This document shows, piece by piece, positions 1 through 40,160 of a DNA stretch of 64,000 nt. The stretch spans positions 78,633-142,632 of the IMG/VR virus record IMGVR_UViG_3300032893_000003; one strand, written 5' to 3'. Position 1 is the first letter of the stretch. Each line of letters begins with the position of its first letter. The notes beneath the pieces are model-generated. The model was given only the letters and a program-made list of their open reading frames with translations, had not been told where the DNA came from and did no database searches. The stretch comes from a virus. Lineage: Duplodnaviria > Heunggongvirae > Uroviricota > Caudoviricetes. Position numbers and translations under genes: made by a program.

Positions 1-839
1 TTGCTGAAGTCAGCGAGCTTATAATTGACATCGACCGCCGAAACAGCAAGAACGCCAGGATAGGCTGCAGGGTAGATCACAGCCCCGCCGTCATTGCCAG
101 CCGCGGCTACGACAATTAAACCAGCTCTCTGCGCGTCAGCCACAGCTTCTTTCATGATGGAACTGTCCCCGCCCCCTAAACTCATACTGATAATCGAGGC
201 GTGTCCAATGCAGGCTTTAATCCCATCAGCCACATTCGCGTCGGTCCCGCTTCCTTGAGAATCAAGGACTTTGACAGGAAATATTTTAGCCTTAGGTGCG
301 ACACCCTGGACACCATTTTGAGAATCGGCTTTGGCTGCAATAGTTCCGGAGACGTGTGTCCCGTGGCCCATATCGTCGTACCAATCCTCTTTCCCAGTAG
401 CTGTCGTTTTGATAATAGCAACGCCAGGCAGATAGACGCCGGCTAAGTCCGGATGATCAGTTCCAGCCCCCGTATCAACAACACAGATTGTAACGCCCTC
501 TCCACTCCCGTTTGGTAGCTTATTAGCTTGAGGGGCATTGACCGCAGTCGTTCCCCACGGAACTGGCGTTACGGTGTCGCTAGCCGCGACGCGCGGACGG
601 CCCATGATATGGACTGTGCCATTCTTCTCCACCATAAATCCTTGGTTCTTGAAGTTTGCTACTTGGCGATCGCTGAGATCAGCCACAAAACCTTCGAAGT
701 ACCGGAGATGCCTTTTGATTGGAACGCTAGCCGCAGCCGCATTAAGACTTAATGCCTGAGGATCCGACGGAAGGCGCACGATATATTCTGTGGCCATCGC
801 CTGACAACTTACTAACACGATCACTAACAGCTTTAACAT
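1..839 (-). CDS. subtilisin-like serine protease (peptidase S8), secreted; partial, C-terminus with catalytic Ser lies beyond the window start
   Basis: Own translation of the minus strand from the ATG at 839 (RBS AAGGAGAGG) is stop-free to position 1. It begins MLKLLVIVLVSCQAMA (signal peptide) and contains VCVVDTGAGTDHPDL (Asp motif), HGTHVSGTIAA (His motif) and AAAGNDG (oxyanion Asn). It is absent from the ORF track because it runs off the window edge. Confidence 0.8.
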   Translation of the reverse strand, partial: MLKLLVIVLVSCQAMATEYIVRLPSDPQALSLNAAAASVPIKRHLRYFEGFVADLSDRQVANFKNQGFMVEKNGTVHIMGRPRVAASDTVTPVPWGTTAVNAPQANKLPNGSGEGVTICVVDTGAGTDHPDLAGVYLPGVAIIKTTATGKEDWYDDMGHGTHVSGTIAAKADSQNGVQGVAPKAKIFPVKVLDSQGSGTDANVADGIKACIGHASIISMSLGGGDSSIMKEAVADAQRAGLIVVAAAGNDGGAVIYPAAYPGVLAVSAVDVNYKLADFS

Positions 840-857
840 AACCTCTCCTTTGGTTTG

Positions 858-931
858 TGGCGCTCGGGATGGGAATCGAACCCACCTAACTACTTTTAGA
901 GAGCAGCGCCTGACCGATCGGCCACCCGAGC
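858..931 (-). tRNA. tRNA with anticodon CUA (amber suppressor-type, reads UAG)
   Basis: The reverse complement reads GCTCGGGTGGCCGATCGGTCAGGCGCTGCTCTCTAAAAGTAGTTAGGTGGGTTCGATTCCCATCCCGAGCGCCA. It has a 7-bp acceptor stem GCTCGGG/CCCGAGC, a GGTTCGATTCC T-loop and an encoded CCA. The anticodon stem is CTGCT/AGTAG with a 7-nt loop CUCUAAA, placing CUA at positions 34-36. Confidence 0.7.
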
Positions 932-937
932 AGACCA

Positions 938-1258
938 TTATACCAGCTTAAGGAAATCAAACCAATCAGGAGGCGAAAGTGTCGCAAATGCTGTCATTTC
1001 GTTACCAATGTCTGGTTCGTAGAAGGGGTATGCTTCCTCGCAGTCAGTATAGGCTTCTTTAAACGAGACTGGGTCTGTCTTTAGATACACAAGTGTCTCA
1101 CCGTCCCAACGTGCTGGAACTACTTCCATTTCCCGTCCATTCCAGTGATGTCGCCTAAATTCGCGAGAGCAGAAGGCCGCCACGGCATGGCCGGCCTGCA
1201 CCGCTTGCTGACTACGCGACAGGTCGGATCTGACTAGCACGAAAAGCCGCCTGCTCAT
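938..1258 (-). CDS. peptidyl-tRNA hydrolase PTH2-like protein
   Basis: The 106-aa N-terminus LVRSDLSRSQQAVQAGHAVAAF matches the PTH2-family motif (vvRtDL..gkgaAQ..HA). The gene sits next to the tRNA/tmRNA genes. Confidence 0.45.
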   Translation of the reverse strand: MSRRLFVLVRSDLSRSQQAVQAGHAVAAFCSREFRRHHWNGREMEVVPARWDGETLVYLKTDPVSFKEAYTDCEEAYPFYEPDIGNEMTAFATLSPPDWFDFLKLV

Positions 1259-1535
1259 CTTGCACCTTCTTTAATAATGCGTTGATGATATCCCACTTAG
1301 GTTCGTTACCTTCGTGGACCTTTGACTCAATCTGCTCGTAGGATCTTCCGCGAGCCAGGCAGTAAGCGATGTGCTTATGCCTGAACTCCGGAACTGATTT
1401 CCAGAGCGGTTTAGAGTCGGGCGGGAAATTACTGACTCCGCGGCTTCGTTGAAATTCCTTAACTGCGGCGCGCGTAAGACTGATGTTTTTAGCGAGGGCT
1501 TTTAGCTCCTCTTTCATTTGTTTTAAGGGTGACAT
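1212..1535 (-). CDS. hypothetical protein (ends with a TAG stop)
   Basis: 107-aa ORF overlapping its neighbour by 47 nt in another frame. No recognisable domain. Its stop codon is TAG. Confidence 0.45.
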   Translation of the reverse strand: MSPLKQMKEELKALAKNISLTRAAVKEFQRSRGVSNFPPDSKPLWKSVPEFRHKHIAYCLARGRSYEQIESKVHEGNEPKWDIINALLKKVQDEQAAFRASQIRPVA

Positions 1536-2648: not shown

Positions 2649-4133
2649 TTAAAACGGAACGCCTGTGCATTCCGCAAGTCTATTCCTAATCTCTGAGAAC
2701 GTTTGGAAGTTTTGAATCTTCCCGTCTAAGAACACCGTCCGAAGCAGATCATTCGGGTACTCTTCAAGAAGACTCAGACCATCCTGACATTTCAAAACGC
2801 CTGTATCAAGATCGCGATAAACAACGATGCGGCCTTTGGGCGACTTCTTAACACCACTGTCAGTTACAGGATCTTTGAACATTTGGCGCTCCTGTCCGTC
2901 TACAATACAAGCTGTTGCTTTAAGTGCTTGGCCGAGGTTATCGCGCGTATTGTGTTGATACGTGAAAGAACCAATACCGAACACAACATTCGTAGACGCA
3001 AATCCCTTTGCTTCAAGACCAGAGAGGATCTTGTCAGCAATAATAGTTGTAATCGAGTCACCATAGATAGCTCCAATATGCGGATCGAGTTGCTTATAGC
3101 CTTTTAGCGTCATAGTTCCACCAAATATCTCCCACAAGATCTCAATTGTGCCTTTCCGCTCAGCTTCAGTCTTGCCATTTGGATCGCCACAGATGATCTT
3201 TACTGGGTCGCCAGAATCAGGTCGAATGACGACCTTGCCGTCGCGATTCACGATGACATTTCTAAGATCATAGACAACTTTAGTCAGCACATCCCAGTAG
3301 TTCCATGTGTCCGACACGATTGAAACAAAACCCTTTGGGTAAAGCTCCGTGATCAAGAACTTGAAGGTTGCGTGTTCATCTTTTCCGTGAGCACACATAA
3401 CTGAGTGCTCGGTTGCGGGGATAGATGTACCAATGAGCTCCTTTTCAATGTCAGCGCCGTAGAAATGCTCAGTGTACTCGATGCTCGGTGCTGTATCAGT
3501 ACCAACAAACGAGAGAAGATGTGCCGATCCTGATCTTGTGGCTGCGTAAAGTCCCGCCATTCCGCGCATCGAAAAGTCATGCCCTTGGAATTTCACAAAG
3601 CTCGCATCACCTACGGTCTTCATTGCGTAATTGTGAAGAAGCTTTTTATAGACCTGCGCAATAGTTGCGTTATTGATCGATTGCCAGATTTCACAAGACA
3701 TGAGCGTTTCAACCCAGTTTGTGAACCAAAAGAAATCCTTTTCAGTGTTTTGAGATGTGAACATCGGCACTCGAATCGGGACCATTGTTCCTTCAGGTAG
3801 AGCACGAATGTGTAGCGGAACATAACCTAGATCGTGAAGGTCTGCTATGTGCTTAACCTCAGGGTTTTGGTCACCGAGTGTGTACTTCACAAAACGGGTA
3901 TACTTTTTTAGCACGTCATCAATAGGCTGCTTAAAGAAATGCTCGTTAAAGAAGTCAATGAGCCACTCCTGATTGAAGGCCTGAAGATTGTACATAACAG
4001 CCCCGTCAGCTCCGCCGATACGACAAGTGCGCGGTGTCCAAATGGAACTAACAACTTCAGTGTTCTTTGGATATTGTGGCCTATGGGAAAATTTGTAGAA
4101 ATCACATAGAGCCATGGCTTGCGGTGTAAACAT
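2649..4133 (-). CDS. nicotinamide phosphoribosyltransferase-family protein (NAMPT/NadV-like; candidate NARP1 Namat)
   Basis: 494 aa carrying NAMPT signature motifs DFYKFSHRPQYP, IRALPEGTMVPIRVPMFT..FWFTNWVETL and VIRPDSGDP. ATG start with RBS AAAGGAG. Confidence 0.9.
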   Translation of the reverse strand: MFTPQAMALCDFYKFSHRPQYPKNTEVVSSIWTPRTCRIGGADGAVMYNLQAFNQEWLIDFFNEHFFKQPIDDVLKKYTRFVKYTLGDQNPEVKHIADLHDLGYVPLHIRALPEGTMVPIRVPMFTSQNTEKDFFWFTNWVETLMSCEIWQSINNATIAQVYKKLLHNYAMKTVGDASFVKFQGHDFSMRGMAGLYAATRSGSAHLLSFVGTDTAPSIEYTEHFYGADIEKELIGTSIPATEHSVMCAHGKDEHATFKFLITELYPKGFVSIVSDTWNYWDVLTKVVYDLRNVIVNRDGKVVIRPDSGDPVKIICGDPNGKTEAERKGTIEILWEIFGGTMTLKGYKQLDPHIGAIYGDSITTIIADKILSGLEAKGFASTNVVFGIGSFTYQHNTRDNLGQALKATACIVDGQERQMFKDPVTDSGVKKSPKGRIVVYRDLDTGVLKCQDGLSLLEEYPNDLLRTVFLDGKIQNFQTFSEIRNRLAECTGVPF

Positions 4134-4146
4134 TTAAATCTCCTTT

Positions 4147-4434
4147 TTAATAAGAACAATAAAACCTAATAGTCTTTGCTTCTTTGGGGATATCTTTCAC
4201 TTCAATTTCAAATCCGTCACGATGATCATCGCTCCACTCTTCATGGGGTATTTCGATTTCAGCAAACTGCTCTTTGATGTATTCATCTTTGCACTCAATC
4301 TCACTACCGAAATATTCCGTCACCTCTTTTGGATAGCTTAAGCCCTCCTTGTCGCAGTACTGTTTTGCCTTCATCATCTTTTTAAATTTACCGTCAAGGT
4401 CTCGAAATCCGGTTACGTGCATAGACATTCCCAT
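4147..4434 (-). CDS. hypothetical protein between the NAMPT-like and Prs-like genes
   Basis: 95-aa acidic ORF whose start/stop overlap its neighbours (ATGA-type coupling). Confidence 0.5.
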   Translation of the reverse strand: MGMSMHVTGFRDLDGKFKKMMKAKQYCDKEGLSYPKEVTEYFGSEIECKDEYIKEQFAEIEIPHEEWSDDHRDGFEIEVKDIPKEAKTIRFYCSY

Positions 4435-5225
4435 TACTTAATCTCCCCGTCTTTTGTGAAAATACGACTAATCCCCGCATCTCTAAGTGGTTTAAGCCCC
4501 TTAGAGAAGATGCCGTGGCTGACGTATAGATAAAGTTCGCGCGCCCCGTAGGTTTTAAGCTCGTCCGCCGCTTTAATAAATGTCATGCCGCCATCACAAA
4601 TATCGTCCAGCATCAGAATATCGAGGTCACCGAGATTAGTGGCTGGCTTATCGTCACCCCACTTAACGCTAAGCCCTATGATCTCACCTGTTTGCTGATT
4701 CCTTACCTTGTTTCCTATAAGCACTTCATCCATCGGGCGCTCGATGAGCCCAGCATAGCGATTATTGGCACCCTTATCCGGAAAATAGATGCAGTGGGGC
4801 TCACACGCCGCAATAGTTTTACGAATTTCTGTCAAAGGCTGCCGGCTTCTAAGATTGTGGATAAGCTCCGAAGCCACGGGAGAATGGACATCTACGGACA
4901 TCACAAGATCGAACTTAAAAGCGTTAATCACGGTGGCAAAGGTATGTAAGGAAAAAGTGAGGCTATTATCGATCTCTTTGTCCTGTCTGGCGTAAGGTAA
5001 ATAAGGCATATCCAAGTGCTTACTTGCCCTCGGACATTCCTTGTCCAGAAGATTCTTTAGCTGAAGGACAGGCATGAGCTCGCGTTCGTAAGAAAAGTCC
5101 CATGTAATGGTATTGATCGTAATCGCCGAGTGTTTATTAAACCACTCGCCTGGAATTTTCCAAACTTGAGAAGTGCCGTCAGGAAATAGCGTCGGCGTGA
5201 CCTCGTGGTCGTTTAGCAGAATCAT
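4434..5225 (-). CDS. ribose-phosphate pyrophosphokinase (PRPP synthetase)-like protein (candidate NARP1 Adps, ADP-ribose pyrophosphokinase)
   Basis: 263 aa with the Prs-type motif SVDVHS (compare TVDLHA) and the PRPP-binding loop LMLDDICDGGMTF (compare VDDMIDTGGT). It lies immediately upstream of, and is co-transcribed with, the NAMPT-like gene. Confidence 0.8.
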   Translation of the reverse strand: MILLNDHEVTPTLFPDGTSQVWKIPGEWFNKHSAITINTITWDFSYERELMPVLQLKNLLDKECPRASKHLDMPYLPYARQDKEIDNSLTFSLHTFATVINAFKFDLVMSVDVHSPVASELIHNLRSRQPLTEIRKTIAACEPHCIYFPDKGANNRYAGLIERPMDEVLIGNKVRNQQTGEIIGLSVKWGDDKPATNLGDLDILMLDDICDGGMTFIKAADELKTYGARELYLYVSHGIFSKGLKPLRDAGISRIFTKDGEIK

Positions 5226-5517
5226 TGTGTCTCCTTATTTCTTCTAGCATTGCGAGCTTTTCATCTTCAAGCTTTTTTAAATCAATATCGTAGAACTCCG
5301 CGACAAGATCCGTGAGTTTGGCCCTGATTGGAAAGGCAAAGTCGTAATCCAACTCGCGCTTGGCATCAGCAAAGTCCTCGTTATTTTCATAGAACTCCTC
5401 TGAATAGTTTTCCATGAGGCGGATGTCTTTTGTGTCACTCAGCCATTCTATAAACTCATGAATTGCTTGGCTTTTATACTGTATATACTTTAGTTTTTCG
5501 TGCTCGGGTCGTTCCAT
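5179..5517 (-). CDS. hypothetical protein
   Basis: 112-aa acidic ORF overlapping the Prs-like start by 47 nt in another frame. Confidence 0.45.
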   Translation of the reverse strand: MERPEHEKLKYIQYKSQAIHEFIEWLSDTKDIRLMENYSEEFYENNEDFADAKRELDYDFAFPIRAKLTDLVAEFYDIDLKKLEDEKLAMLEEIRRHNDSAKRPRGHADAIS

Positions 5518-5752: not shown

Positions 5753-6280
5753 CTATAACAGAGTTACAAGCTTTTGCGACCGGTTGAGCCAGCCATTTAA
5801 GAACTTAATTTGACCTGGATGATCAAGGACGATGTTAACGTAATATTGCTGAACCTGATGGATGAATAGGTAAAAAAAGTTAATTCTATCCATTTTGTTT
5901 ATAGCAAGTAACGACTCGCTCCCCAAATCTCCGTCAGCCGCTACGCCGGCCGCAGTTTGGGCGAAGATCGCAGCTTTGTAGTTACCGAGATTAACTGACA
6001 TATCTAAAATAGCTGTAGCAACTGAAATATCTGTAACATCATCAAGGCTCTGAGCTTTCCAGTAAAATTCCTGATAAATAGATATAGCTTCATCTTTCGT
6101 GAGATTTTGGACATCGTCTGCAGTTGGAACCGGCTGATTTTGAAGTTGTCGCCAGCGGGCTAAGTCATCAAGGGTAATGCCCCATTTCGTCGGGCCGCCA
6201 CCGTCTTCTGGATCGTCTGTGTATTCGGAACCTTCGTTTAGAAGAACGTACTCAATCGCTGTTTGAAAGTCTGCCACCAA
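5753..6280 (-). CDS. glycoside hydrolase family 108 lysozyme with a peptidoglycan-binding-like C-terminal part
   Basis: The N-terminus LNEGSEYTDDPEDGGGPTKWGIT matches the GH108 signature (EGGY.NDP.D.GG.T..GIT). The start is TTG/GTG with a GGGGGTG RBS. The stop codon is TAG. Confidence 0.8.
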   Translation of the reverse strand: MVADFQTAIEYVLLNEGSEYTDDPEDGGGPTKWGITLDDLARWRQLQNQPVPTADDVQNLTKDEAISIYQEFYWKAQSLDDVTDISVATAILDMSVNLGNYKAAIFAQTAAGVAADGDLGSESLLAINKMDRINFFYLFIHQVQQYYVNIVLDHPGQIKFLNGWLNRSQKLVTLL

Positions 6281-6959: not shown

Positions 6960-7220
6960 TCAGCAAATACGTTCTTTATCTATGACATTATCGATGGTTT
7001 TGATTGCCTTTTCAAGAGCGCGGAACTGAACTCGCGTTAAAGCTATGTCCGTGCGATCAAGCATATCTAATTGAGTCCTAATTTCAAGAAGTGCCTTGAC
7101 GATGGTCTCTGGCTTTTTCTTTTCAATCGTTGCGACATGATGTTTGAAGTTGGTGTCAGCTTTCCATCTGTTATATTCCATCTCTGAGGGAGAAATAAAT
7201 TTACACTCTCGACGTTGCAT
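6960..7220 (-). CDS. hypothetical protein
   Basis: 86-aa ORF overlapping the downstream gene start by 20 nt. Confidence 0.4.
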   Translation of the reverse strand: MQRRECKFISPSEMEYNRWKADTNFKHHVATIEKKKPETIVKALLEIRTQLDMLDRTDIALTRVQFRALEKAIKTIDNVIDKERIC

Positions 7221-7686
7221 AAGATCTGCTCACTTTCGCGATTGTCCATCCAATAAGTTGTTCTAAGTTTGCGGCCTGCTGGACTGCGTAGCGGCTGCAG
7301 ACAATGTCCACGTTCCCCTTGCGCCAAAATCCTTCTGGGCAGCATACGATAAGCTTTCCTGTTTTAGCATAAAGCCCAAGTTCTAGAAGAGATATGGGGG
7401 ACTTGGTTGTGGGGTCAAAGTACATCGCTATATGTGTTGCGCGCTCGAGACACGAAAGTTCCCAAGTGACCTGCTCGCGGAACTTATCATTTGATATCTT
7501 CTGTTCCCATGACGAATCCCAGTCATCGCGCCGCGGATTAAGTACGGTCACATCAAGAAACCTAAGCCTGTGTGTTATCTCTGTCTGCCAATCCACTGCC
7601 TTTCCCATCTCAATGCTGCCAGCGAGAAAGACAGAGACAATTGGCGCATCCATAGGGATTGGTTCTGGCGCTTTAACAACAATCAT
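7201..7686 (-). CDS. nucleoside 2-deoxyribosyltransferase-like protein (Rcl/DNPH1-like fold)
   Basis: 161 aa with SVFLAGSIEMGKAVDWQ...LNPRRDDW...ELGLYAKTGKLIV, matching the flavodoxin-like nucleoside deoxyribosyltransferase pattern. RBS GGAGAT. Confidence 0.55.
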   Translation of the reverse strand: MIVVKAPEPIPMDAPIVSVFLAGSIEMGKAVDWQTEITHRLRFLDVTVLNPRRDDWDSSWEQKISNDKFREQVTWELSCLERATHIAMYFDPTTKSPISLLELGLYAKTGKLIVCCPEGFWRKGNVDIVCSRYAVQQAANLEQLIGWTIAKVSRSYATSRV

Positions 7687-7700
7687 TCAAATCTCCTTTA

Positions 7701-7720
7701 TTCCATATTGGAATATGGAA
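7701..7720. promoter_or_regulatory. inverted repeat TTCCATATT-GG-AATATGGAA immediately upstream of the RBS of the 7201-7686 gene
   Basis: Perfect 9-bp arms with a 2-nt spacer. On the minus strand it lies directly 5' of AAAGGAGATTTGA-ATG. Confidence 0.4.
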
Positions 7721-7741
7721 TATACAAGTAAAATCATTTAG

Positions 7742-8044
7742 TTACCTTCTTTTTGGCTTTTTGTCCTCAAATTGAGCGGACAATTTCTTAGCAAAACTCT
7801 CAGTCGCTTTGTCTCCAAAGTGCTCGGCTACCTGATCAAGTGTAACCCAGCCTATAAGATGAAGTGCTTTTCGAGCAGCTTTGCCAGGAACGGCCAGACC
7901 CTCCTCGGTCGTCCCCAAAAGAACTGCATAAAACTCTTTACCTTTATGAGCTTTGTACATGGAGCGAACTGAGGTCTTCTCATCCACTGGTTCTTTTATT
8001 GTAATTGTTTTGGTATAGAAAATGTTGCCGGCGTTGATTTTCAT
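7742..8044 (-). CDS. hypothetical protein
   Basis: 100-aa ORF whose start is overlapped (ATGA) by the stop of the upstream gene. Confidence 0.5.
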   Translation of the reverse strand: MKINAGNIFYTKTITIKEPVDEKTSVRSMYKAHKGKEFYAVLLGTTEEGLAVPGKAARKALHLIGWVTLDQVAEHFGDKATESFAKKLSAQFEDKKPKRR

Positions 8045-8976
8045 AAATCTCCTTTATTTAAAATACCGTTAATGATGCCGCAAATAGCCTCGGGTGGCAA
8101 TGTACTTCCCGTTTCCCGCGGAGAGCCTCCGATAGTGTTGGATCCGCCCCAGCGATTTGCTTCCGTGATATTTTCATCTCGGTTGTTTAGTGCCTCATAG
8201 ATCTTATCAAGCGGAAAATTAATCCACGTTGATTTCCGACCTAGTACATAGATCCCGTGTCCACGATCAGATAGAAAAGCGTTGACCCCGCTTGCGAACA
8301 TGAACATTCGAGATGATGTGCTAGTTTCTTTTACAAAAGACCAGCCGTTAAAAGAATTTAGAACCTCGAAGTGTTTATTAATCGAGCATTGTCCAGCCTT
8401 TCCCATGCAATAATCGCAAATTCTACTACCAACAGAGGCTAGTATTGCCTCCATGAGGGATTGGTCGAATTGCCCGTAAGCAGCATTTTGACGAACAGAT
8501 CTATAGGGCTCAAAGATCCAGGCCATCGTTCGTAGAAACTCCGTATCTCCGAACGGATAAGTGCCGCCCGTGCAATCAAGCCTGTCGTTGCAATAAACAA
8601 GGCGGTTGATATTTGGATATGCGTGATGACCAATCTGCTCGTGATTCACAAGAAGCCAATAGGCAAGGCACGTATCTTCGTCAACGTCATTGACATAGAC
8701 ATTCGCCGTCGGAATTCCATCTTTTCTGAAAGTCTCAAAGAGTCCTAAGTTAATCTCCATATGGACCTGATCGGCTGTTGAACGTGTCGATATGCGATCG
8801 ACAAGAGAATGATGGTCGAAGTTTGCGTAAGGACCTTTAGAATCCCTGCGTGTGGGCCCATCAACAAAGCCATCAAGTGCTATCGAATAGGGCGGATAAT
8901 CTTTAGTGAATGTTTCCCAAGAAATAGTTTTCCGTGGTTCTATGTGTAAATTAATCATGTTAAATCTCCTCACCAA
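8041..8976 (-). CDS. hypothetical protein (311 aa)
   Basis: Long intact ORF with an ATG start and RBS. No confident domain assignment. Confidence 0.55.
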   Translation of the reverse strand: MVRRFNMINLHIEPRKTISWETFTKDYPPYSIALDGFVDGPTRRDSKGPYANFDHHSLVDRISTRSTADQVHMEINLGLFETFRKDGIPTANVYVNDVDEDTCLAYWLLVNHEQIGHHAYPNINRLVYCNDRLDCTGGTYPFGDTEFLRTMAWIFEPYRSVRQNAAYGQFDQSLMEAILASVGSRICDYCMGKAGQCSINKHFEVLNSFNGWSFVKETSTSSRMFMFASGVNAFLSDRGHGIYVLGRKSTWINFPLDKIYEALNNRDENITEANRWGGSNTIGGSPRETGSTLPPEAICGIINGILNKGDL

Positions 8977-9015
8977 ACTTATAACTTTTAAACGACGGTT
9001 TTGGTAAGAATAAAA

Positions 9016-9104
9016 TGGCGGAGGAGCCAGGATTCGAACCTGGACGGCTGTTACGCCTTGCTAGCTTAGCACGCTAGTGGTTTAACCAATTCACCCACTC
9101 TTCC
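9016..9104 (-). tRNA. tRNA-Ser (anticodon GCU), type II
   Basis: The reverse complement GGAAGAGTGGGTGAATTGGT...GGTTCGAATCCTGGCTCCTCCGCCA has anticodon stem CTAGC/GCTAG with loop GUGCUAA and a long variable arm. There is one A-C mismatch in the acceptor stem. Confidence 0.65.
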
Positions 9105-9114
9105 ATAATAAAGT

Positions 9115-9206
9115 TGGCGGAGGACCCGAGATTCGAACTCGGACGGCCTTTTCGAGCCTCGCCGGTTTTCAAGACCGGTGGTTTCGTCCATTTCACCCAA
9201 TCCTCC
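9115..9206 (-). tRNA. tRNA-Ser (anticodon UGA), type II
   Basis: The reverse complement GGAGGATTGGGTGAAATGG...CCGGTCTTGAAAACCGG...GAGTTCGAATCTCGGGTCCTCCGCCA has loop CUUGAAA and a long variable arm. Confidence 0.75.
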
Positions 9207-9212
9207 AACAAC

Positions 9213-9300
9213 TGGTGGAGAGAGGTAGATTTGAACTACCGCGGCCCCGAAGGACACCGGTTTTACAGACCGGCCGTTTCAGCCTCTCACGCATCTCTCC
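9213..9300 (-). tRNA. tRNA-Tyr (anticodon GUA), bacterial type with long variable arm
   Basis: The reverse complement GGAGAGATGCGTG...CCGGTCTGTAAAACCGG...GGTAGTTCAAATCTACCTCTCTCCACCA has loop CUGUAAA. Confidence 0.75.
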
Positions 9301-9307
9301 ACAAAAA

Positions 9308-9384
9308 TGGTCTGGGTGGCAGGATTTGAACCTGCGACTTCCTGGTTCCAGGCCAGGATCTCTACCGGACTGAGTTACACCCAG
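9308..9384 (-). tRNA. tRNA-Pro (anticodon UGG) candidate
   Basis: The reverse complement CTGGGTGTAACTCAGTCCGGTAGAGATCCTGGCCTGGAACCAGGAAGTCGCAGGTTCAAATCCTGCCACCCAGACCA has a perfect acceptor stem CTGGGTG/CACCCAG and anticodon stem CCTGG/CCAGG with loop CCUGGAA. Position 33 is an unusual C, which lowers confidence. Confidence 0.55.
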
Positions 9385-9406
9385 ATATCTAAAACAAAAC
9401 CTCCTT

Positions 9407-9484
9407 TGGTGTCGGGGGTGGGATTTGAACCCACAGCTTTACGGCTCTTAAGGCCGTTGCGTATGCCAATTCCGCCACCCCGAC
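9407..9484 (-). tRNA. tRNA-Leu-like (anticodon UAA) with an atypically short variable arm
   Basis: The reverse complement GTCGGGGTGGCGGAATTGGCATACGCAACGGCCTTAAGAGCCGTAAAGCTGTGGGTTCAAATCCCACCCCCGACACCA has a Leu-type D-arm (TGGCGGAATTGG) and an A73 discriminator. The loop is CUUAAGA. The variable region is only about 5 nt, so it is not the type II arm expected for Leu. Confidence 0.5.
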
Positions 9485-9485
9485 A

Positions 9486-9568
9486 TGGTGCCCTCAGGGA
9501 GAGTCGAACTCCCACGCTTGCGCGATCGCTTCTAAGGCGATTGTGTCTGCCAGTTCCACCACAAGGGC
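9486..9568 (-). tRNA. tRNA-Leu (anticodon UAG), type II
   Basis: The reverse complement GCCCTTGTGGTGGAACTGGCAGACACAATCGCCTTAGAAGCGATCGCGCAAGCGTGGGAGTTCGACTCTCCCTGAGGGCACCA has loop CUUAGAA and a 12-nt variable arm. Confidence 0.75.
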
Positions 9569-9573
9569 ACAAT

Positions 9574-9609
9574 AAATAAAAAAACCCTGAGGTATTAGCC
9601 CAGGGTTTT
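9574..9609 (-). terminator. rho-independent terminator-like hairpin followed by a T-run on the minus strand, directly 5' of the tRNA cluster
   Basis: The 8-bp stem AAACCCTG/CAGGGTTT with its loop is followed on the minus strand by TTTTTTTTATTTATT. Confidence 0.5.
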
Positions 9610-9851
9610 AAGTATCTAACTCTAAATTTTAACTGAAGTTAGACGATATCCCCCCTGAGCTCAGTGCTCAAATATGACGGTAGACTTGGGGAGAGTCGTA
9701 AAAACTTCATGAAAAGAGTTTAGATGAAAAAATGGAGCCCGTCCACCACTAAAGGTGAAGATAAATATCCTCTCTGGAGGCGTAAGCGGCCATGTCACGC
9801 TTCTTTGGACTCGCTGGTCCAGGATTGATATCTATCAACGGGCATAAGGTT

Positions 9852-10418
9852 TCACAGATATTCTTTCCTACCACCTGATTTTATTAAATAAAACTGTTTG
9901 TTATCTTTTTCAAAATATTTATCTGGATTCTGGTAACAGGGATTAAACTCCCCAAAATTTTGTTTAATCTGCGCCGCGTACTTCTTACCCCAACTGCGCC
10001 TAACCGACCATTTCCACGACGGATCCCTGAGCTTTAAATCATATCCATCATTATTTAGTTTGGTGAAGAGTCGGTAAAAGTAGTAAGGATCATTTTCCAA
10101 AATGCCAATGCGAAATAATTTTACAGATCTTTTTTCACAGAGATACTTTTTGATATCGTCGCGATCTATTTGATTTTTATCGGTTATGTGATGCGGCCCT
10201 TGCACTTCAAATGCGATTTTATTGTTAGGTAAATAAAGATCGAGCTCTAACCTGCATCCTGTCTTGGGATTCACTAACCATTTTGGCCAGGCCCCTATAA
10301 CTATATTTTCCTCCGCTAAAAGTACGGCGGTAAGGGTGCGAAAAACTTGAACTTCGGCCTGAGATCTGCCCATAAATAGATTCTTAAAAATTGTAGCGCG
10401 GATGTCAATGCCCGGCAT
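9852..10418 (-). CDS. DUF559/Vsr-like (PD-(D/E)xK) endonuclease-domain protein, possible homing endonuclease
   Basis: The motif ELDLYLPNNKIAFEVQGPHH matches the E-D...EvDG..H pattern of DUF559/Vsr-like nucleases. The tool start at 10472 is TTG and overlaps the tmRNA, so I used the in-frame ATG at 10418. Confidence 0.55.
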   Translation of the reverse strand: MPGIDIRATIFKNLFMGRSQAEVQVFRTLTAVLLAEENIVIGAWPKWLVNPKTGCRLELDLYLPNNKIAFEVQGPHHITDKNQIDRDDIKKYLCEKRSVKLFRIGILENDPYYFYRLFTKLNNDGYDLKLRDPSWKWSVRRSWGKKYAAQIKQNFGEFNPCYQNPDKYFEKDNKQFYLIKSGGRKEYL

Positions 10419-10436
10419 CCGCGCTACAAACAAAAA

Positions 10437-10861
10437 TGGTGTAGGTAGCGGGAATCGAACCCGCGTCCACAAAAACTTTCAAACGCTCTCTACATACTTA
10501 GCCGTCTTCTGGTCAGGCTGACCCGCTTGCAGTTAAACTCGGCAAGCTCACGATTGGGGGCGGACTACACCGCCAGATCCACCAGCCCGTATTTTGCGCT
10601 ACGACGGGACCGCGCAGGATTTGCCGCGTGTTTTTATCCAGGTCACTTCAGCCAGCTCCTGGTTTTGGTGGTCTTTAGTTTCAAGGCTTCCACCGGCCCC
10701 GCGCGCTACGGATTAGGCAGCGCGAGCGACTGCAGCCTTGCGGCCGAAGTCAACGTGTACGACATTGTCGCCACTTAATAAGTTGCATCATTGATGATCC
10801 GTTCATGCTCCGGGGTATGCAAACGCTTGTCTGTATTCCGTGTCGAAACCATGTTACCCAC
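10437..10861 (-). ncRNA. ssrA: tmRNA (transfer-messenger RNA, SsrA)
   Basis: The reverse complement begins GTGGGTAACATGGTTTCGACACGG (compare the E. coli 5' end GGGGCUGAUUCUGGAUUCGACGGG). It ends ...CTAAGTATGTAGAGAGCGTTTGAAAGTTTTTGTGGACGCGGGTTCGATTCCCGCTACCTACACCA, with a tRNA-like T-arm, acceptor pairing GTGGGTA/TACCTAC and CCA. An internal ORF ends ...GCT GCA GTC GCT CGC GCT GCC TAA (AAVARAA*), consistent with a tag reading frame. Confidence 0.85.
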
Positions 10862-10869
10862 ATTAAATT

Positions 10870-11181
10870 TCAATAACTTTGAAGACGCATTTTACGCTTT
10901 TCTCTAGCCTTCTGGCAACGGCTAGGAGCCGTATGATGCTGCTGATAACGCCGAACTTTAGTCTTAAGCCGCGGCTCAAAGTACGTTTTTCGTACCCAAA
11001 GCTCGCGCTCATGCTCGATGTTCTTAAGCCTCGCTAATGCCTTCTCGTCGATCGTTGGCTTTGGGGGCTCATAGCTCCTGGCAGGCTCCCAGACATCGTT
11101 CCAGTTCACAGCCGTACCGTCGTAGACCAGGTTGTAGCTTGCAGTCGTCTGGTGGGGCCAGTTGTAGGTTACAGTCACCAT
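10870..11181 (-). CDS. hypothetical protein
   Basis: 103-aa ORF co-directional with its neighbours and starting with ATG. Confidence 0.45.
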   Translation of the reverse strand: MVTVTYNWPHQTTASYNLVYDGTAVNWNDVWEPARSYEPPKPTIDEKALARLKNIEHERELWVRKTYFEPRLKTKVRRYQQHHTAPSRCQKAREKRKMRLQSY

Positions 11182-11318
11182 GTTCAGCCTCGCTTAAATG
11201 TTCAATGAACGTGAACTTTTAGGAAAGTTTCATGTAATAGTTTTATAAGATAACGTAAACACTAGCATTTTAAAGCTATATCGGAATTCCGATAAATGGT
11301 ACGCCGCAGCTTTCCTAT

Positions 11319-11660
11319 TTAGAAAAACTCTTCATGATGGCTGATGCAGTATCCTTTGGGATCCATAAATTCGGATTGAGGATTTCCAAGTACCCTTCCG
11401 TCCTGGCCTTTTTCGACCACCTCGCAGAACTCATCAAACGGAATGTTCCTTTCGTACTCGTCAAAGATCCTAAGATTCCATGTCCAGATGAACTTCTTCC
11501 ACTCGTCCCATGATTTAAAGCGCGGGTTAAAGATAAACTTCCAGCCCCCGCTTTTTTTACCGATGTGAATCTCTTCTTCGGGAGTTATGTCAGCGCGGCC
11601 GCAGTGTTCGCACTTGTTCTTCTCTTCACGGAACGTTTTTATATAGTAATTTGTGCCCAT
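11319..11660 (-). CDS. hypothetical protein with a CxxC zinc-ribbon-like N-terminus
   Basis: 113 aa containing CEHCGR. Confidence 0.5.
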   Translation of the reverse strand: MGTNYYIKTFREEKNKCEHCGRADITPEEEIHIGKKSGGWKFIFNPRFKSWDEWKKFIWTWNLRIFDEYERNIPFDEFCEVVEKGQDGRVLGNPQSEFMDPKGYCISHHEEFF

Positions 11661-11929
11661 TAGCTTTTCTCCAAGAATTTCATCATATCGAGTTGTACAC
11701 CGATCGCCTCAACATTTTGATGCTCATATACTGGCTTTCCGTCTTGTACAATGAGGCGCGTTTTATTGCCGCTAGGTTCAGCCACAAAGAAAACCTGAAC
11801 GGTTTTCGGAAGTCCTTTGGCTAATGCATATCGCGTGGTGCTTCGATCAAGCCACATCTTAATCCCCGAGTCTGTTATATGATCTGGCTTTCGATCTGTG
11901 TCCCATGGTAGTTTCATCTCTTCCATCAA
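11660..11929 (-). CDS. hypothetical protein
   Basis: 89-aa ORF with start/stop coupling to its neighbours. Confidence 0.45.
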   Translation of the reverse strand: MMEEMKLPWDTDRKPDHITDSGIKMWLDRSTTRYALAKGLPKTVQVFFVAEPSGNKTRLIVQDGKPVYEHQNVEAIGVQLDMMKFLEKS

Positions 11930-12276
11930 TCCATCCTCCCATACTCAAACCAGCAATGAATCCCCTGATCACGCAAAAGCTTTACCATATTCTGAGCACT
12001 GTGTTCCCAGACAAAGCAGCCTTGCGCAGGGGTCACGTCGAAAGCGCTAATCAATCTGTGTTTAACAGGTTTTCTTTTCTTTTTAGGTAAGTAGTGTATA
12101 TAGATTCCCGCACCTAAAACGCAAGGACCGCGGTCGCCGTTATTTTTGTAATAATCATCACAGCAGCGTCTCCAGACGCGTTTAGCGTCATCAACAATCT
12201 GCTTAAAGCCAATGTCTTCGATATCTTGTGGTTGATAAATTTGAATGGTCTCATCGCCATAGGTCATTAATTTCAT
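11926..12276 (-). CDS. hypothetical protein
   Basis: 116-aa ORF whose stop overlaps the downstream start. Confidence 0.45.
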   Translation of the reverse strand: MKLMTYGDETIQIYQPQDIEDIGFKQIVDDAKRVWRRCCDDYYKNNGDRGPCVLGAGIYIHYLPKKKRKPVKHRLISAFDVTPAQGCFVWEHSAQNMVKLLRDQGIHCWFEYGRMD

Positions 12277-12286
12277 TTAAATCTCC

Positions 12287-13423
12287 TTACTTAATTTTAA
12301 TTCCAACACCGCCTTTACCCACACGATACTTATTCCCGCGCCATTCGATTTTTTGACCCACAAGCGTATGCGCCCACAGGGGCAAACTTAAGAGCTCACG
12401 AAGAAGCCACGCACCGATATCCTTGAAATTAAAGAATCTATCTTGCGTGGCGGATAGTGAAACCATGTCGGCCATGAACCAAAGGGTGAAATGATACGCA
12501 AGCACCTGCAGCGTATGAGCCGGATCAATGTGCTGCATAGCCACATAGGCTATAGCGCCTGAGCTAAAAAGCCCGTAAAAGGGCTCAAACAGGAAAACAA
12601 AAACATTGTGTCCTTTACGCATCCGGCCCCAGCGCACATGGCGCGTCCAGAACTTTTTAAAGCTGTAGTTTTCAAGCGTTTGTTTAATCGGGGCTGACAT
12701 TACATGCGTCTTATGACCAAGCGCCTTCATCTTCTGACCAATCATATAATCTTCAGCAAGATAGTTTCCAATCGAGTTAAGTCCACGGAATTTGCGAGCC
12801 GTAGACTTTCTAAACAGCATCGATGCCCCTATGATGATGGGGAAACCTAAAAGGTTCGCTAGGAAAATAAACCGCACATAGAACGTGCTTAAGTAAGCCA
12901 TTTCTAAATATTGACCTAGCCCTGAAGGATTTACGACCGTAGACGCAGCTGTAAGAATGCCCATTGTTTTTGTGAACCCATTACGGAGTGACCACAAGTA
13001 CTCCTTATGAGCAATTGAGTTGCTGTCGCTGATAAGAACAAGATCGTTTTTCGCTGCTTCGTAAGCCCAATAAATATTTTGAATCTTCGGATTTGTAAAA
13101 AAGCGACACGGTTTAACGATAAGCTTAGCTGGCACTCTGTAGTAATGGGCTATGAGTTTTCGAATCACATCACAAGCGGTATCTCCATAGCTTTCAACAC
13201 AGAACAGAAGCTCATCGCCTACAATGAACTCCTGTTTAAAAAACGTCTCAAGCTTTTTTTCTAAGCCTTCGCTAAAGCCCTTAACCGGTTTTAAGATGGT
13301 AATTGGTTCCATTCGGGTGAGCGATTTTGGCGGTTTAAAGTAATAATTATAAAGCACAAGCCACGCTCCGAAGACCGTGAAAAAGAGAGCTATCATCCAT
13401 GACAGCAATAGCAGCTCGTACAC
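12287..13423 (-). CDS. membrane glycosyltransferase, family 2 (GT21/ceramide-glucosyltransferase/HpnI-like)
   Basis: 378 aa with an N-terminal TM helix, ILKPVKG, the AEDYMIG (D/ED) motif and the WTRHVRWGRMRK (QxxRW-like) motif. The start is GTG with a GAGG RBS. Confidence 0.7.
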   Translation of the reverse strand: MYELLLLSWMIALFFTVFGAWLVLYNYYFKPPKSLTRMEPITILKPVKGFSEGLEKKLETFFKQEFIVGDELLFCVESYGDTACDVIRKLIAHYYRVPAKLIVKPCRFFTNPKIQNIYWAYEAAKNDLVLISDSNSIAHKEYLWSLRNGFTKTMGILTAASTVVNPSGLGQYLEMAYLSTFYVRFIFLANLLGFPIIIGASMLFRKSTARKFRGLNSIGNYLAEDYMIGQKMKALGHKTHVMSAPIKQTLENYSFKKFWTRHVRWGRMRKGHNVFVFLFEPFYGLFSSGAIAYVAMQHIDPAHTLQVLAYHFTLWFMADMVSLSATQDRFFNFKDIGAWLLRELLSLPLWAHTLVGQKIEWRGNKYRVGKGGVGIKIK

Positions 13424-27735: not shown

Positions 27736-28506
27736 TTATAGTTTTAAATAACTCAAAGTCATCCCCGCATCTCGCTTTGACCTGTTGTAGTACCTAAAAC
27801 AGCTATCGTGCCAATGAGTACTCGGGTCTGTAACCTTCATCGGAATGTAGTTGTCAAAATACTCAGGCGGCGCTTGCATCAATACTTTCTTAGTTTGAAC
27901 GCGCGGATAACATGCAGCAATCCATGACGGACCGCTGTCCGGACCGATAAAAACACTTGCCTGTGCAATGAGTCCAACTAGACGCCAGACGTCGTCAGTT
28001 TTCCCCCTAAGATCCGCAGCACCAGGGACTGGAACATCGTCTTTTCCGCCAACTTGGATCATGGCATAGCCGTGATATTTTAGCTTAATGTGACGAATGA
28101 TTTCTTCGTTTAGAATCATCGCCTGATCGTACCCGCGCCAAGTATGAACAGCTTGAGTACCTGTCGTGTGCACGATGACGGTGCCGGATGATTCGCACTC
28201 CTCAAACTTATAAAGCCGCGGGTGCGCAAGGCTCACAGGCACACTAAGCATTAAGGCGTTTCGTTCAGCCAGGCTCGTGTAGATAGGACGACCTGGGTAC
28301 TTGATCTTATCTAGCGGGAACTTCCATAGATTTATAATCTCCTTAGGCTGTTCATTGCGAACAACATAAGGGTTGTGATCAAAGACCCACGCTTTATCTA
28401 CGTCGATCAGTTTTTTACCCGTTGCTTTAAAATAGTTCTCGGGCATTGATGTGAACTGGATCATGTCGCCGATGCCCGGGGCACCTTCAAGGGAAATTCC
28501 TAACAT
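27736..28506 (-). CDS. glycosyltransferase family 9 (heptosyltransferase)-like protein
   Basis: 256 aa. The C-terminal GGKDDVPVPGAADLRGKTDDVWRLVGLIAQASVFIGPDSGPSWIAA matches the GT9 motif (DL.GKT.L..L..LI..A.L.IGNDSGP.HLAAA). The N-terminus carries GIGDMIQF. Confidence 0.6.
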   Translation of the reverse strand: MLGISLEGAPGIGDMIQFTSMPENYFKATGKKLIDVDKAWVFDHNPYVVRNEQPKEIINLWKFPLDKIKYPGRPIYTSLAERNALMLSVPVSLAHPRLYKFEECESSGTVIVHTTGTQAVHTWRGYDQAMILNEEIIRHIKLKYHGYAMIQVGGKDDVPVPGAADLRGKTDDVWRLVGLIAQASVFIGPDSGPSWIAACYPRVQTKKVLMQAPPEYFDNYIPMKVTDPSTHWHDSCFRYYNRSKRDAGMTLSYLKL

Positions 28507-40148: not shown

Positions 40149-40160
40149 ACTCTATATCTC

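What the first reader, a model, noticed from the sequence alone, without database searches (positions are those of the whole stretch)
858..931. Phage-encoded amber-suppressor-type tRNA(CUA) in a genome that visibly uses TAG as a stop codon
A well-folded 74-nt tRNA with anticodon CUA sits between the secreted protease gene and the PTH2-like gene. In this same window at least three ORFs (1212-1535, 1639-1860, the GH108 lysozyme 5753-6280) terminate precisely on TAG, and all long ORFs are intact in the standard code. This argues against a fully recoded early region. The tRNA could drive late-gene TAG recoding (code-15-like switching as in crAss-like and Lak phages), extend specific proteins by read-through, or antagonise host translation or defence.
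Basis: seen in the sequence. Interest (0 to 1): 0.7.

Follow-up and report, generated by a model that had tools for sequence, protein, structure and literature searches.

The report
Amber-suppressor tRNA in conserved phage cassette
The tRNA that reads the stop codon TAG is real, and it turns out to be the third member of a three-gene cassette (small unknown protein, PTH2-like peptidyl-tRNA hydrolase, tRNA-CUA) that recurs in more than a hundred uncultured phage contigs, although no gene we could reach in this phage needs TAG to be read through.

Summary
A 74-nt tRNA with anticodon CUA lies at 858-931 on the minus strand (ARAGORN; Rfam tRNA, 52 bits), with an encoded CCA end. It sits 6 nt after one ORF and 18 nt before the next.

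In the reachable sequence TAG is an ordinary stop. It ends 19 of 116 ORFs in the window. No in-frame TAG occurs on the coding strand in the window or the 10 kb to its left. None occurs in 2,700-5,800 codons of tail genes in each of four relatives. Late-gene recoding is therefore unsupported but not excluded, because about 100 kb of the ~175-kb genome could not be read.

New findings:
- This phage has a second, different tRNA(CUA) about 1 kb outside the window.
- The upstream ORF (938-1258) is a divergent PTH2-fold protein.
- The ORF before it (1212-1535) belongs to an uncharacterised family.
- Together with the tRNA they form a cassette. Of 107 mostly viral loci, 103 carry the PTH2-like gene and 82 carry both proteins. 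tRNA(CUA) is 68 of 185 tRNAs in the first 80 loci, mostly within 20 nt downstream.
- In 16 loci the PTH2-like ORF itself contains an in-frame TAG.

I found no paper describing this linkage. The mechanism remains inferred.

The parts
858..931 (-). tRNA(CUA), 74 nt with an encoded CCA end. It is the RNA member of the cassette.
   Evidence: ARAGORN; Rfam RF00005 at 52.1 bits; sequence read. It begins 6 nt after the PTH2-like stop codon. The subtilase start codon lies 18 nt after its 3' end.
938..1258 (-). PTH2-like protein, 106 aa: a divergent peptidyl-tRNA hydrolase 2 fold. It is the middle member of the cassette.
   Evidence: HMMER finds 212 cluster representatives. The family profile hits PDB peptidyl-tRNA hydrolases 24bt and 2zv3 at E~3.5e-5, and also 1rzw, 1rlk, 1q7s and 1xty. 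The AF2 model has pLDDT 95. Foldseek top hits are 2zv3, 3erj, 1q7s and 1xty, probability 1.0, TM 0.52-0.68.
1212..1535 (-). 'Protein A', 107 aa: an uncharacterised, predicted all-helical, basic protein and the first member of the cassette. Its TAG stop lies inside the 5' end of the PTH2-like ORF (47-nt overlap).
   Evidence: Homologs lie immediately upstream of the PTH2-like gene in at least 40 loci and in 85 of 107 loci by HMM. Conserved motif: EYRHxHIAYCxLRG..EQIE. No Pfam or PDB match.
3..839 (-). S8 subtilase with a signal-like N-terminus, truncated by the window edge. It is a downstream neighbour and not a conserved cassette member.
   Evidence: Pfam Peptidase_S8, E=2.7e-36. The full gene is 355 aa in L001. 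It is absent from this position in relative L021.
9016..9568 (-). Array of six ordinary tRNAs (Ser-GCU, Ser-UGA, Tyr-GUA, Pro-UGG, Leu-UAA, Leu-UAG). Part of the same phage translation toolkit, not of the cassette.
   Evidence: ARAGORN; Rfam.
10437..10861 (-). Phage-encoded tmRNA. Same toolkit, not part of the cassette.
   Evidence: ARAGORN; Rfam RF00023 at 106 bits, E=1.6e-40.

Best explanation
The element is a functional amber-decoding tRNA. It is the RNA component of a conserved, phage-restricted three-gene cassette, transcribed in this order: protein A (1212-1535), PTH2-like protein (938-1258), tRNA(CUA) (858-931).

Shown:
- The tRNA lies inside a polycistronic unit, 6 nt after one ORF and 18 nt before the next. 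It must therefore be cut out of the mRNA.
- It carries its own CCA end and the A36-A37-A38 loop.
- The cassette recurs in more than 100 viral contigs.
- In about 15% of them the PTH2-like ORF is itself interrupted by one in-frame TAG. There the full-length protein can only be made if UAG is decoded. This shows that cassette tRNAs are used as suppressors, and it couples production of the PTH2-like protein to suppressor activity.

Inferred:
- During infection the tRNA is charged by a host synthetase and competes with RF1 at UAG.
- The PTH2-like enzyme acts on tRNA esters that arise from this. One possibility is recycling peptidyl-tRNA that drops off when UAG termination is slowed or read-through runs into 3' regions. 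Another is limiting the charged suppressor pool.
- The TAG inside its own gene works as a sensor, like the in-frame UGA of prfB.
- Protein A may bind RNA, the ribosome or RF1. Its role is unknown.

In this particular phage the cassette genes carry no in-frame TAG, and every reachable gene treats TAG as a stop. Here the system most likely produces partial read-through, or serves genes in the unread ~100 kb, rather than a wholesale code switch.
For: The tRNA is real.

The same phage has a second tRNA(CUA) with a different backbone, at L001:7770-7846. Its ortholog is 75% identical, with compensatory stem changes. In a relative whose PTH2-like protein is only 52% identical, that ortholog starts 1 nt after the PTH2-like stop.

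Baiting IMG/VR with the PTH2-like profile gave 80 loci.
- 65 have tRNA(CUA) within 3 kb, always on the same strand.
- CUA accounts for 68 of 185 tRNAs (binomial p~3e-59).
- Of 62 measurable distances, 26 are 0-20 nt and 55 are under 1 kb downstream.

Reciprocal baiting with protein A gave 35 loci, 20 of them new contigs. 32 have the PTH2-like gene and 30 have tRNA(CUA).

Pooled over 107 loci: 103 have the PTH2-like gene, 85 have protein A, and 82 have both.

An in-frame TAG lies inside an otherwise conserved PTH2-like ORF in 16 loci, or 15 of 93 distinct sequences. Protein A has one in 3 of 85 (Fisher p=0.007).

The family is almost absent from 185,579 cellular species genomes. There were 6 hits, all on MAG contigs.

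The PTH2 fold is supported.
Against: - No UAG that needs decoding was found in this phage. This covers the 64-kb window, the extra 10 kb of L001, and the tail modules of relatives.
- The amino acid carried is unknown. Cassette tRNAs have heterogeneous discriminators (A 30, U 22, G 16, C 4) and acceptor stems. BLAST against annotated phage tRNAs was uninformative.
- In the HMM alignment to 2zv3, the second Lys of the GKGK motif aligns with Gln in this family. From memory, that Lys is the catalytic Lys18 of Sulfolobus Pth2. Hydrolase activity is therefore not assured.
- Tight linkage could partly reflect inheritance of a block rather than joint function.
- Protein A has no detectable homology, and its single-sequence model is unusable (pLDDT 50).
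- No expression, charging or proteomic data exist.
Confidence: 0.6

Rival explanations
1. Late-gene code switch. The tRNA(CUA) is made from the early region. Late structural or lysis genes elsewhere in the ~175-kb genome carry in-frame TAG, so they are translated only once the suppressor has accumulated, as in crAss-like, Lak and other code-15 phages.
For: - Suppressor tRNAs are strongly associated with recoded phages, and 'code-change modules' sit next to lysis genes (Borges et al., bioRxiv 10.1101/2021.08.26.457843).
- Some cassette-bearing IMG/VR loci have homolog-supported in-frame TAGs in other genes. Examples are the L068, L075, L080, L085 and L089 family, L067, and L090, L092 and L093, where TAG aligns with Gln in the 98.9%-identical L091.
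- Lysis enzymes are often adjacent to the cassette.
- About 100 kb of this genome is unread.
Against: - No in-frame TAG in 74 kb of this phage.
- The first gene of the tail module ends on TAG in both this phage and a relative.
- No in-frame TAG in the tail and baseplate genes of four relatives.
- TAG is 16% of stops, so it is not depleted. GC is 46%, not the low GC typical of recoded lineages.
- The GH108 lysozyme has no internal TAG.
Confidence: 0.2
2. Counter-defence or translation-rescue kit, not a coding device. The cassette would work with the phage tmRNA, the tRNA array and the Pnk/phosphatase genes to keep ribosomes running when the host attacks translation. One example: the tRNA fills the A site at UAG, which is the codon RelE-type toxins prefer to cut. 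Another: the PTH2-like enzyme removes N-acetylated or peptidyl esters left by GNAT toxins or by cleaved tRNAs.
For: - The window carries a tmRNA, six tRNAs, a polynucleotide kinase, phosphatase or phosphoesterase genes, and Acb5 nearby.
- Iyer et al. 2021 (PMC7824862) interpret jumbo-phage PTH2 as ribosome rescue after tRNA cleavage.
- In L023 the cassette sits between giant polyvalent proteins with GNAT and ART domains.
- The RelE preference for UAG, tmRNA rescue, and Pth reversing TacT are from my own knowledge of the literature. They were not checked here.
Against: - This does not explain why the partner tRNA is specifically CUA in about 80% of loci.
- It does not explain why the PTH2-like ORF itself carries in-frame TAG.
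- No defence-system target was identified, and the idea is purely contextual.
Confidence: 0.12
3. Functionally neutral passenger. The tRNA(CUA) would be a mutated ordinary phage tRNA, poorly charged or poorly expressed and with no selected role. The XacN1 authors could find no target for that phage's two tRNA-Sup genes either.
For: - No targets were found in this phage.
- XacN1, a cultured standard-code jumbo phage, has two tandem tRNA-Sup(CUA) genes without identifiable targets (PMC5852040; L105).
Against: - Two different CUA tRNAs are kept in this phage.
- The CUA anticodon, the A37-A38 loop and the position are conserved across cassette loci whose proteins are only 30-50% identical.
- In-frame TAGs in partner genes require a working suppressor.
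Confidence: 0.08

Closest known systems
Phage suppressor tRNAs and 'code-change modules' of stop-codon-recoded phages: crAss-like, Lak, Jade and Agate (Ivanova 2014; Al-Shayeb 2020; Borges et al. 2021/2022)
   Same: A phage-encoded tRNA with anticodon CUA, located in a standard-code region of a large phage and often near lysis genes. Some cassette-bearing contigs do carry in-frame TAG.
   Different: [quoted passage not shown] Here the partners are a PTH2-like protein and an unknown 100-aa protein.
- This genome shows no recoding in the 42% that was read.
- TAG stops are not depleted.
- GC is 46%.
Suppressor tRNA(CUA) genes of cultured standard-code jumbo phages, e.g. Xanthomonas phage XacN1 (PMC5852040)
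   Same: Two tRNA(CUA) genes in a large, tRNA-rich, standard-code phage with no identifiable read-through targets. A peptidyl-tRNA hydrolase is encoded somewhere in the genome.
   Different: The ORFs next to the XacN1 suppressors (ORF086 and ORF087) are not homologous to protein A or to the PTH2-like family. Its annotated Pth (ORF295) is not beside the two tRNA-Sup genes. So XacN1 lacks this cassette at that site.
Archaeal and eukaryotic peptidyl-tRNA hydrolase 2 (PTH2/Bit1; PF01981; PDB 2zv3, 1xty, 1q7s), and the PTH2 noted in jumbo phages by Iyer et al. 2021
   Same: Same fold (Foldseek probability 1.0). Conserved helix-1 motif Q-x-x-H-A. An acidic residue sits at the position that aligns with the Asp of the 'RDAG' motif.
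   Different: - It falls below Pfam thresholds.
- The GKGK lysines align with S-(R/K)-S-Q.
- The 'DAGxT' motif is replaced by 'EPDxxNxxTA'.
- It is tightly linked to tRNA(CUA) and to protein A, which is not reported for canonical PTH2.
prfB (RF2) autoregulation by an in-frame UGA
   Same: A translation factor gene carries an in-frame stop codon of the very class its pathway handles. Its synthesis therefore reports on decoding versus termination at that codon.
   Different: prfB uses a +1 frameshift, and the factor itself recognises the stop. Here read-through by a neighbouring tRNA is required, and the direction of feedback is unknown. This is an analogy only.

Membership tests
tRNA (canonical type I cloverleaf) | Cloverleaf with a 7-bp acceptor stem, D arm with G18G19, 5-bp anticodon stem with a 7-nt loop (U33), and a T arm with the TΨC-type loop. 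| tested here: met
   ARAGORN; Rfam RF00005 at 52.1 bits against a gathering score of 29, full-length model match 1-71; manual reading.
Amber suppressor tRNA | Anticodon CUA at positions 34-36, complementary to UAG. | tested here: met
   ARAGORN gives anticodon cta. The loop reads C-U-C-U-A-A-A.
Amber suppressor tRNA | Is aminoacylated and inserts an amino acid at UAG in vivo. | not testable with these tools
   Only indirect support. In 16 related cassette loci the adjacent PTH2-like ORF needs UAG read-through. No such site exists in this phage.
tRNA-Pyl (the ARAGORN label) | 6-bp anticodon stem, 3-nt variable loop, small D loop lacking G18G19, one base between acceptor and D stems, plus pylS/pylBCD genes. 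| tested here: not met
   5-bp anticodon stem, 4-nt variable loop, G18G19 and a normal T loop are present. No Pyl genes appear among the annotated ORFs.
Genetic code 15 (TAG sense) phage genome | Genes with in-frame TAG. Coding density or ORF length rises when TAG is read as sense on the coding strand. | tested here: not met
   This applies to the 64-kb window plus 10 kb, and to relatives' tail genes. There are no coding-strand ORF pairs joined only by TAG. The two exceptions are junctions with a Shine-Dalgarno sequence and a start codon. Relatives have 0 in-frame TAG. The remaining ~100 kb was not tested.
Genetic code 15 (TAG sense) phage genome | TAG is avoided as a terminator. | tested here: not met
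   19 of 116 ORFs end in TAG. Extensions after TAG are like those after TAA and TGA.
PTH2 peptidyl-tRNA hydrolase (PF01981), for ORF 938-1258 | PTH2 α/β fold. | tested here: met
   AF2 pLDDT 95. Foldseek hits 2zv3, 3erj, 1q7s, 1xty and 1rlk, probability 1.0. Profile against PDB gives E=3.4e-5.
PTH2 peptidyl-tRNA hydrolase (PF01981), for ORF 938-1258 | Sequence membership at the Pfam gathering threshold. | tested here: not met
   No Pfam hit even at E<=1 for the window protein. Only a 'faint' PF01981 hit is on record for homolog P0040.
PTH2 peptidyl-tRNA hydrolase (PF01981), for ORF 938-1258 | Catalytic residues (Lys18 and Asp86 of S. solfataricus Pth2, recalled from memory) and hydrolase activity. 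| tested here: inconclusive
   In the alignment to 2zv3, His and Gln of helix 1 are kept, the Asp position aligns with Glu81, and the second Lys of GKGK aligns with Gln17. Activity cannot be tested here.
Protein A / PTH2-like / tRNA(CUA) cassette (defined here) | The three genes are co-oriented and contiguous in this order. | tested here: met
   Window coordinates 1535->1212, 1258->938, 931->858, all on the minus strand. The same order is seen in L021, L023 and most of the 107 loci.

The most novel reading that the evidence does not exclude
The protein A / PTH2-like / tRNA(CUA) cassette is a previously undescribed, self-contained phage device for controlled decoding of UAG. The tRNA reads the codon. 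The divergent PTH2-fold enzyme acts on the resulting tRNA esters, either recycling dropped-off peptidyl-tRNA or setting the level of charged suppressor. The in-frame TAG that recurs in the enzyme's own gene forms a feedback sensor of suppression versus RF1 termination. Protein A may antagonise RF1 or recruit the tRNA. If so, phages could run partial, tunable amber read-through in a host and genome that still use TAG as a stop. That state could be the missing intermediate on the path to full TAG reassignment.
Probability: 0.35. Interest if true: 0.85.

Novelty: new variant of a known kind. Interest (0 to 1): 0.72.

Why it matters
Phage suppressor tRNAs are known. Why standard-code phages keep them has been an open question: the XacN1 authors found no targets for theirs. 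It is also unclear how a phage can tolerate a suppressor while still using that codon as a stop.

A conserved protein partnership gives concrete, testable handles on both questions. The partners are a PTH2-fold enzyme whose own gene is often gated by TAG, and an unknown small protein.

If the cassette tunes or buffers amber read-through, three things follow:
- It would be a natural intermediate in genetic-code change.
- It would be a new regulatory logic for phage gene expression.
- It could be a compact part for engineered amber suppression in bacteria.

It also matters for annotation. PTH2-like ORFs split by TAG are mis-called in code 11.

Tried and rejected
1. Finding the source or close relatives in GenBank phages and IMG/VR by DNA, and with the primase, the 214-aa protein and the PTH2-like protein, found nothing close. 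The SNF2 search gave only distant hits. The single metagenome scan gave one weak relative.

2. Look-ups of the window's right-hand proteins, and of P0001 (100% identical, on a 175,168-bp contig), returned 'not on record'. The rest of this genome could not be read.

A 539-aa version returned only the sigma-like family.

4. The fragmented genes in L018 looked like recoding. They are frameshifts: the reading frames change and the stops are TGA or TAA.

5. The two same-frame ORF pairs joined by TAG in the window (28510-28746 with 27736-28506; 40161-41123 with 39162-40148) were considered as read-through fusions. I rejected them because each TAG is followed by a Shine-Dalgarno sequence and a start codon.

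6. Assigning amino-acid identity by BLAST against annotated phage tRNAs gave mixed Asn, Cys and Lys hits for tRNA2 and none for tRNA1. Residues aligned to TAG positions in PTH2-like genes are in variable loops and are uninformative.

7. tRNA-Pyl was rejected on structure.

8. The XacN1 suppressor neighbours were tested as cassette members and rejected.

The single-sequence model was unusable.

10. Most '-' strand TAG-spanning hits are antisense shadows of '+' strand genes and were ignored.

Full report
**1. The observation**

ARAGORN finds eight RNA genes in the window. One is a 74-nt tRNA at 858-931 on the minus strand, with anticodon CUA. The 'Pyl' label follows only from the anticodon. Rfam's tRNA model matches it full-length at 52.1 bits, against a threshold of 29.

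Read as RNA, it has:
- a 7-bp acceptor stem (G1-C72, C2-G71, U3-A70);
- G18G19 in the D loop;
- a 5-bp anticodon stem;
- the loop C32-U33-CUA-A37-A38;
- a 4-nt variable loop and a normal T arm;
- discriminator G and a genome-encoded CCA.

The A36-A37-A38 loop is the sequence context in which A37 is isopentenylated on UNN-reading tRNAs. That point comes from established knowledge and was not tested here.

The tRNA starts 6 nt after the stop of ORF 938-1258. It ends 18 nt before the ATG of an S8 subtilase (3-839), whose ribosome-binding site lies in that 18-nt gap. It therefore sits inside a polycistronic unit and must be processed out of the transcript.

**2. Is TAG a stop here?**

Yes. A greedy set of 116 ORFs covers 90% of the window in code 11. 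Their stops are TAA 58, TGA 39 and TAG 19.

Treating TAG as sense joins only two coding-strand ORF pairs. In both, the TAG is followed by a Shine-Dalgarno sequence and a start codon. The distance to the next in-frame stop is the same after TAG, TAA and TGA, with medians of 13, 11.5 and 12 codons.

**3. What the window is**

It is the early, replication and auxiliary region of a large uncultured phage. Identified genes include:
- an AEP primase, SNF2 and DEAD helicases, and an SbcC-like ATPase;
- NAMPT and a PRPP-synthetase-like protein;
- a GH108 lysozyme and a C92 amidase;
- glycosyltransferases;
- a polynucleotide kinase and phosphatases;
- six ordinary tRNAs and a tmRNA.

There is no close relative in GenBank phages or IMG/VR. 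A protein identical to ORF 62550-63194 is on record on a 175,168-bp contig, and a 53%-identical ortholog is on a 175,812-bp contig. The genome is therefore about 175 kb.

**4. Search for recoding beyond the window**

L001, a Logan assembly of the same phage, extends 10 kb to the left. It is contiguous in code 11.

From 62550 onward the strand switches to a module of long ORFs. In relatives L003, L015, L017 and L019 these include an 843-aa protein that matches a baseplate-wedge PHROG. The modules contain no in-frame stop in 3,506, 5,761, 3,355 and 2,692 codons respectively, and they use TAG for 1-2 of their 7-15 stops. The apparent fragmentation in L018 is due to frameshifts.

No evidence for code 15 exists in any sequence I could read. 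About 100 kb of this genome remained out of reach.

**5. A second suppressor**

L001 carries another tRNA(CUA) at L001:7770-7846, about 1 kb outside the window's left edge. It is 77 nt, has discriminator U and an encoded CCA, and is 71% identical to the first.

**6. The neighbours form a cassette**

*The PTH2-like protein.* ORF 938-1258 has no Pfam or single-sequence PDB hit. An exhaustive HMMER search found 212 cluster representatives. A profile of 75 of them hits solved peptidyl-tRNA hydrolases of the PTH2 family, with 24bt and 2zv3 at E~3.5e-5, plus 1rzw, 1rlk, 1q7s and 1xty. An AlphaFold model (pLDDT 95) matches the same structures with Foldseek probability 1.0. The family is divergent. 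His24 and Gln21 are kept and the Asp position aligns with Glu81. The second Lys of the GKGK motif, which I recall as the catalytic lysine of canonical PTH2, aligns with Gln.

*Conservation in a relative.* The 52%-identical ortholog, P0038, lies in a related phage. That phage has the same AEP primase and SNF2 genes, more than 20 tRNAs and a tmRNA. A 77-nt tRNA(CUA) begins 1 nt after the ortholog's stop codon. This tRNA is the ortholog of tRNA2, at 75% identity with compensatory stem changes. A further homolog, P0040, sits in an unrelated context between giant polyvalent proteins. It too has a tRNA(CUA), 561 nt downstream.

*Baiting IMG/VR with the PTH2-like profile.* This returned 80 loci from contigs of 5-554 kb.
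- 65 have a tRNA(CUA) within 3 kb, always on the same strand.
- CUA accounts for 68 of 185 tRNAs. The next most common anticodon occurs 10 times (p~3e-59).
- Of 62 measurable distances, 26 are 0-20 nt and 55 are under 1 kb downstream.
- Four further loci carry tRNA(UUA) instead.

*Protein A.* The ORF upstream in the window (1212-1535, 107 aa) also belongs to a conserved family. Homologs lie immediately upstream of the PTH2-like gene in at least 40 loci. Using it as bait gave 35 loci, 20 on new contigs. Of these, 32 have the PTH2-like gene and 30 have tRNA(CUA).

*Pooled counts over 107 loci.* PTH2-like 103, protein A 85, both 82.

*Distribution and annotation.* Only six hits exist in 185,579 cellular species genomes. 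All are on MAG contigs, at least one of which is a known viral contig. Protein A has no Pfam or PDB match.

**7. In-frame TAG in the partner gene**

In 16 loci (15 of 93 distinct sequences) the PTH2-like ORF contains exactly one in-frame TAG, flanked on both sides by conserved family sequence. Eight lie at the end of helix 1 and two at 'YL-X-V'. This can be seen directly in L038 and L066. Protein A has such a codon in only 3 of 85 loci (p=0.007). A few other genes in cassette loci also carry homolog-supported in-frame TAGs.

In those phages, therefore, UAG must be decoded, and synthesis of the PTH2-like protein depends on it.

The cassette tRNAs are heterogeneous in discriminator and acceptor stem. 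No single amino-acid identity can be inferred. BLAST against annotated phage tRNAs was uninformative.

**8. Interpretation**

Shown:
- The tRNA is real.
- It is one of two in this phage.
- It is the third gene of a conserved, phage-restricted cassette.
- Cassette tRNAs act as suppressors in at least some phages.

Inferred:
- The tRNA competes with RF1.
- The PTH2-like enzyme handles peptidyl- or aminoacyl-tRNA species linked to suppression.
- The TAG in its own gene acts as a sensor. The sign of the feedback is unknown.
- Protein A's role is unknown.

For this phage the target codons remain unidentified. Partial read-through, or targets in the unread part of the genome, are both possible.

**9. 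Comparison with what is known**

- Suppressor tRNAs in recoded phages, and 'code-change modules' of tRNA plus aaRS plus RF, are described by Borges et al..
- Suppressor tRNAs without identifiable targets occur in standard-code jumbo phages such as XacN1. XacN1's suppressors lack this cassette.
- PTH2 in jumbo phages is noted by Iyer et al. 2021, without any link to suppressors.
- Full-text searches for Pth2 or peptidyl-tRNA hydrolase together with suppressor tRNA or genetic code found no description of the linkage. Subscription-only literature was not searchable.

**10. Verdict**

The most informative result is the cassette, which I rate as a new variant of a known kind, namely phage code-change or suppressor modules.

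Noticed in passing
L001:7770-7846 (about 935-1011 nt left of window position 1): A second tRNA(CUA) with a different backbone in the same phage: 77 nt, discriminator U, encoded CCA, and a possible 6th anticodon-stem pair (27-45). It directly follows a 115-aa cytidylyltransferase-like ORF. Its ortholog occupies the cassette slot in relative L021.
   Followed up: partly
window 10437-10861 (-): Phage-encoded tmRNA (Rfam 106 bits) with predicted tag peptide GDNVVHVDFGRKAAVARAA. Relatives also carry one (L021:12800-13288; L111:1603-1930).
   Followed up: no
window 41407-42018, 45714-46166, 47765-48505 (+): A phosphoesterase, a polynucleotide kinase and a NinI-like phosphatase with a weak RNA-ligase PHROG hit. 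Together they resemble a tRNA/RNA-repair set of the T4 Pnk/Rnl type. The 324-aa ORF between them (46167-47141) is unannotated.
   Followed up: no
window 2649-4133, 4434-5225 (-); L001:7422-7769: NAD salvage genes: NAMPT, a PRPP-synthetase-like protein and a short cytidylyltransferase-like (NMNAT-like?) ORF. An Acb5 (anti-CBASS) homolog lies at L001:11028-11264.
   Followed up: no
window 39162-41123 (-): Two ORFs of about 320 aa are in the same frame, separated only by TAG-GAG-ATA-TAG-AGT and then GTG. Double amber read-through would fuse them. I judged it an ordinary junction, because the first TAG overlaps a Shine-Dalgarno sequence, but conservation could not be checked.
   Followed up: partly
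L003:17430-18314 and homologs P0006-P0037; orthologs would lie just right of the window: A ~300-aa sigma-factor-like protein (Sigma70_r3) sits inside the tail/baseplate module. It is conserved in at least 32 clusters on contigs of 155-175 kb and defines a sizeable uncultured phage family.
   Followed up: no
L090-L093 (IMG/VR 3300045988 contigs of 331-554 kb): These PTH2-like loci carry a tRNA(UUA) (ochre type) upstream instead of a tRNA(CUA). One gene (4511-5228) has TAG where the 98.9%-identical L091 has Gln.
   Followed up: no
L023:1-4850 and 6995-12354: The cassette is flanked by giant polyvalent proteins (more than 1,800 and more than 2,500 aa) with ART-PolyVal, NUDIX and several GNAT acetyltransferase domains.
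   Followed up: no
L027:2056-2592; L028:3432-3902; window 5753-6280: Cell-wall lytic enzymes lie next to or near the cassette in several lineages: Phage_lysozyme, Peptidase_M15 and GH108. In L025 and L027 the lysozyme ORF ends on TAG.
   Followed up: no
L014:3173-3329 (IMG/VR contig of 350 kb); L068, L078, L088: Tandem pairs of two different tRNA(CUA) genes, one 74-76 nt and one 75-77 nt, recur in unrelated phages, as they do in XacN1 (L105:36047-36205).
   Followed up: no
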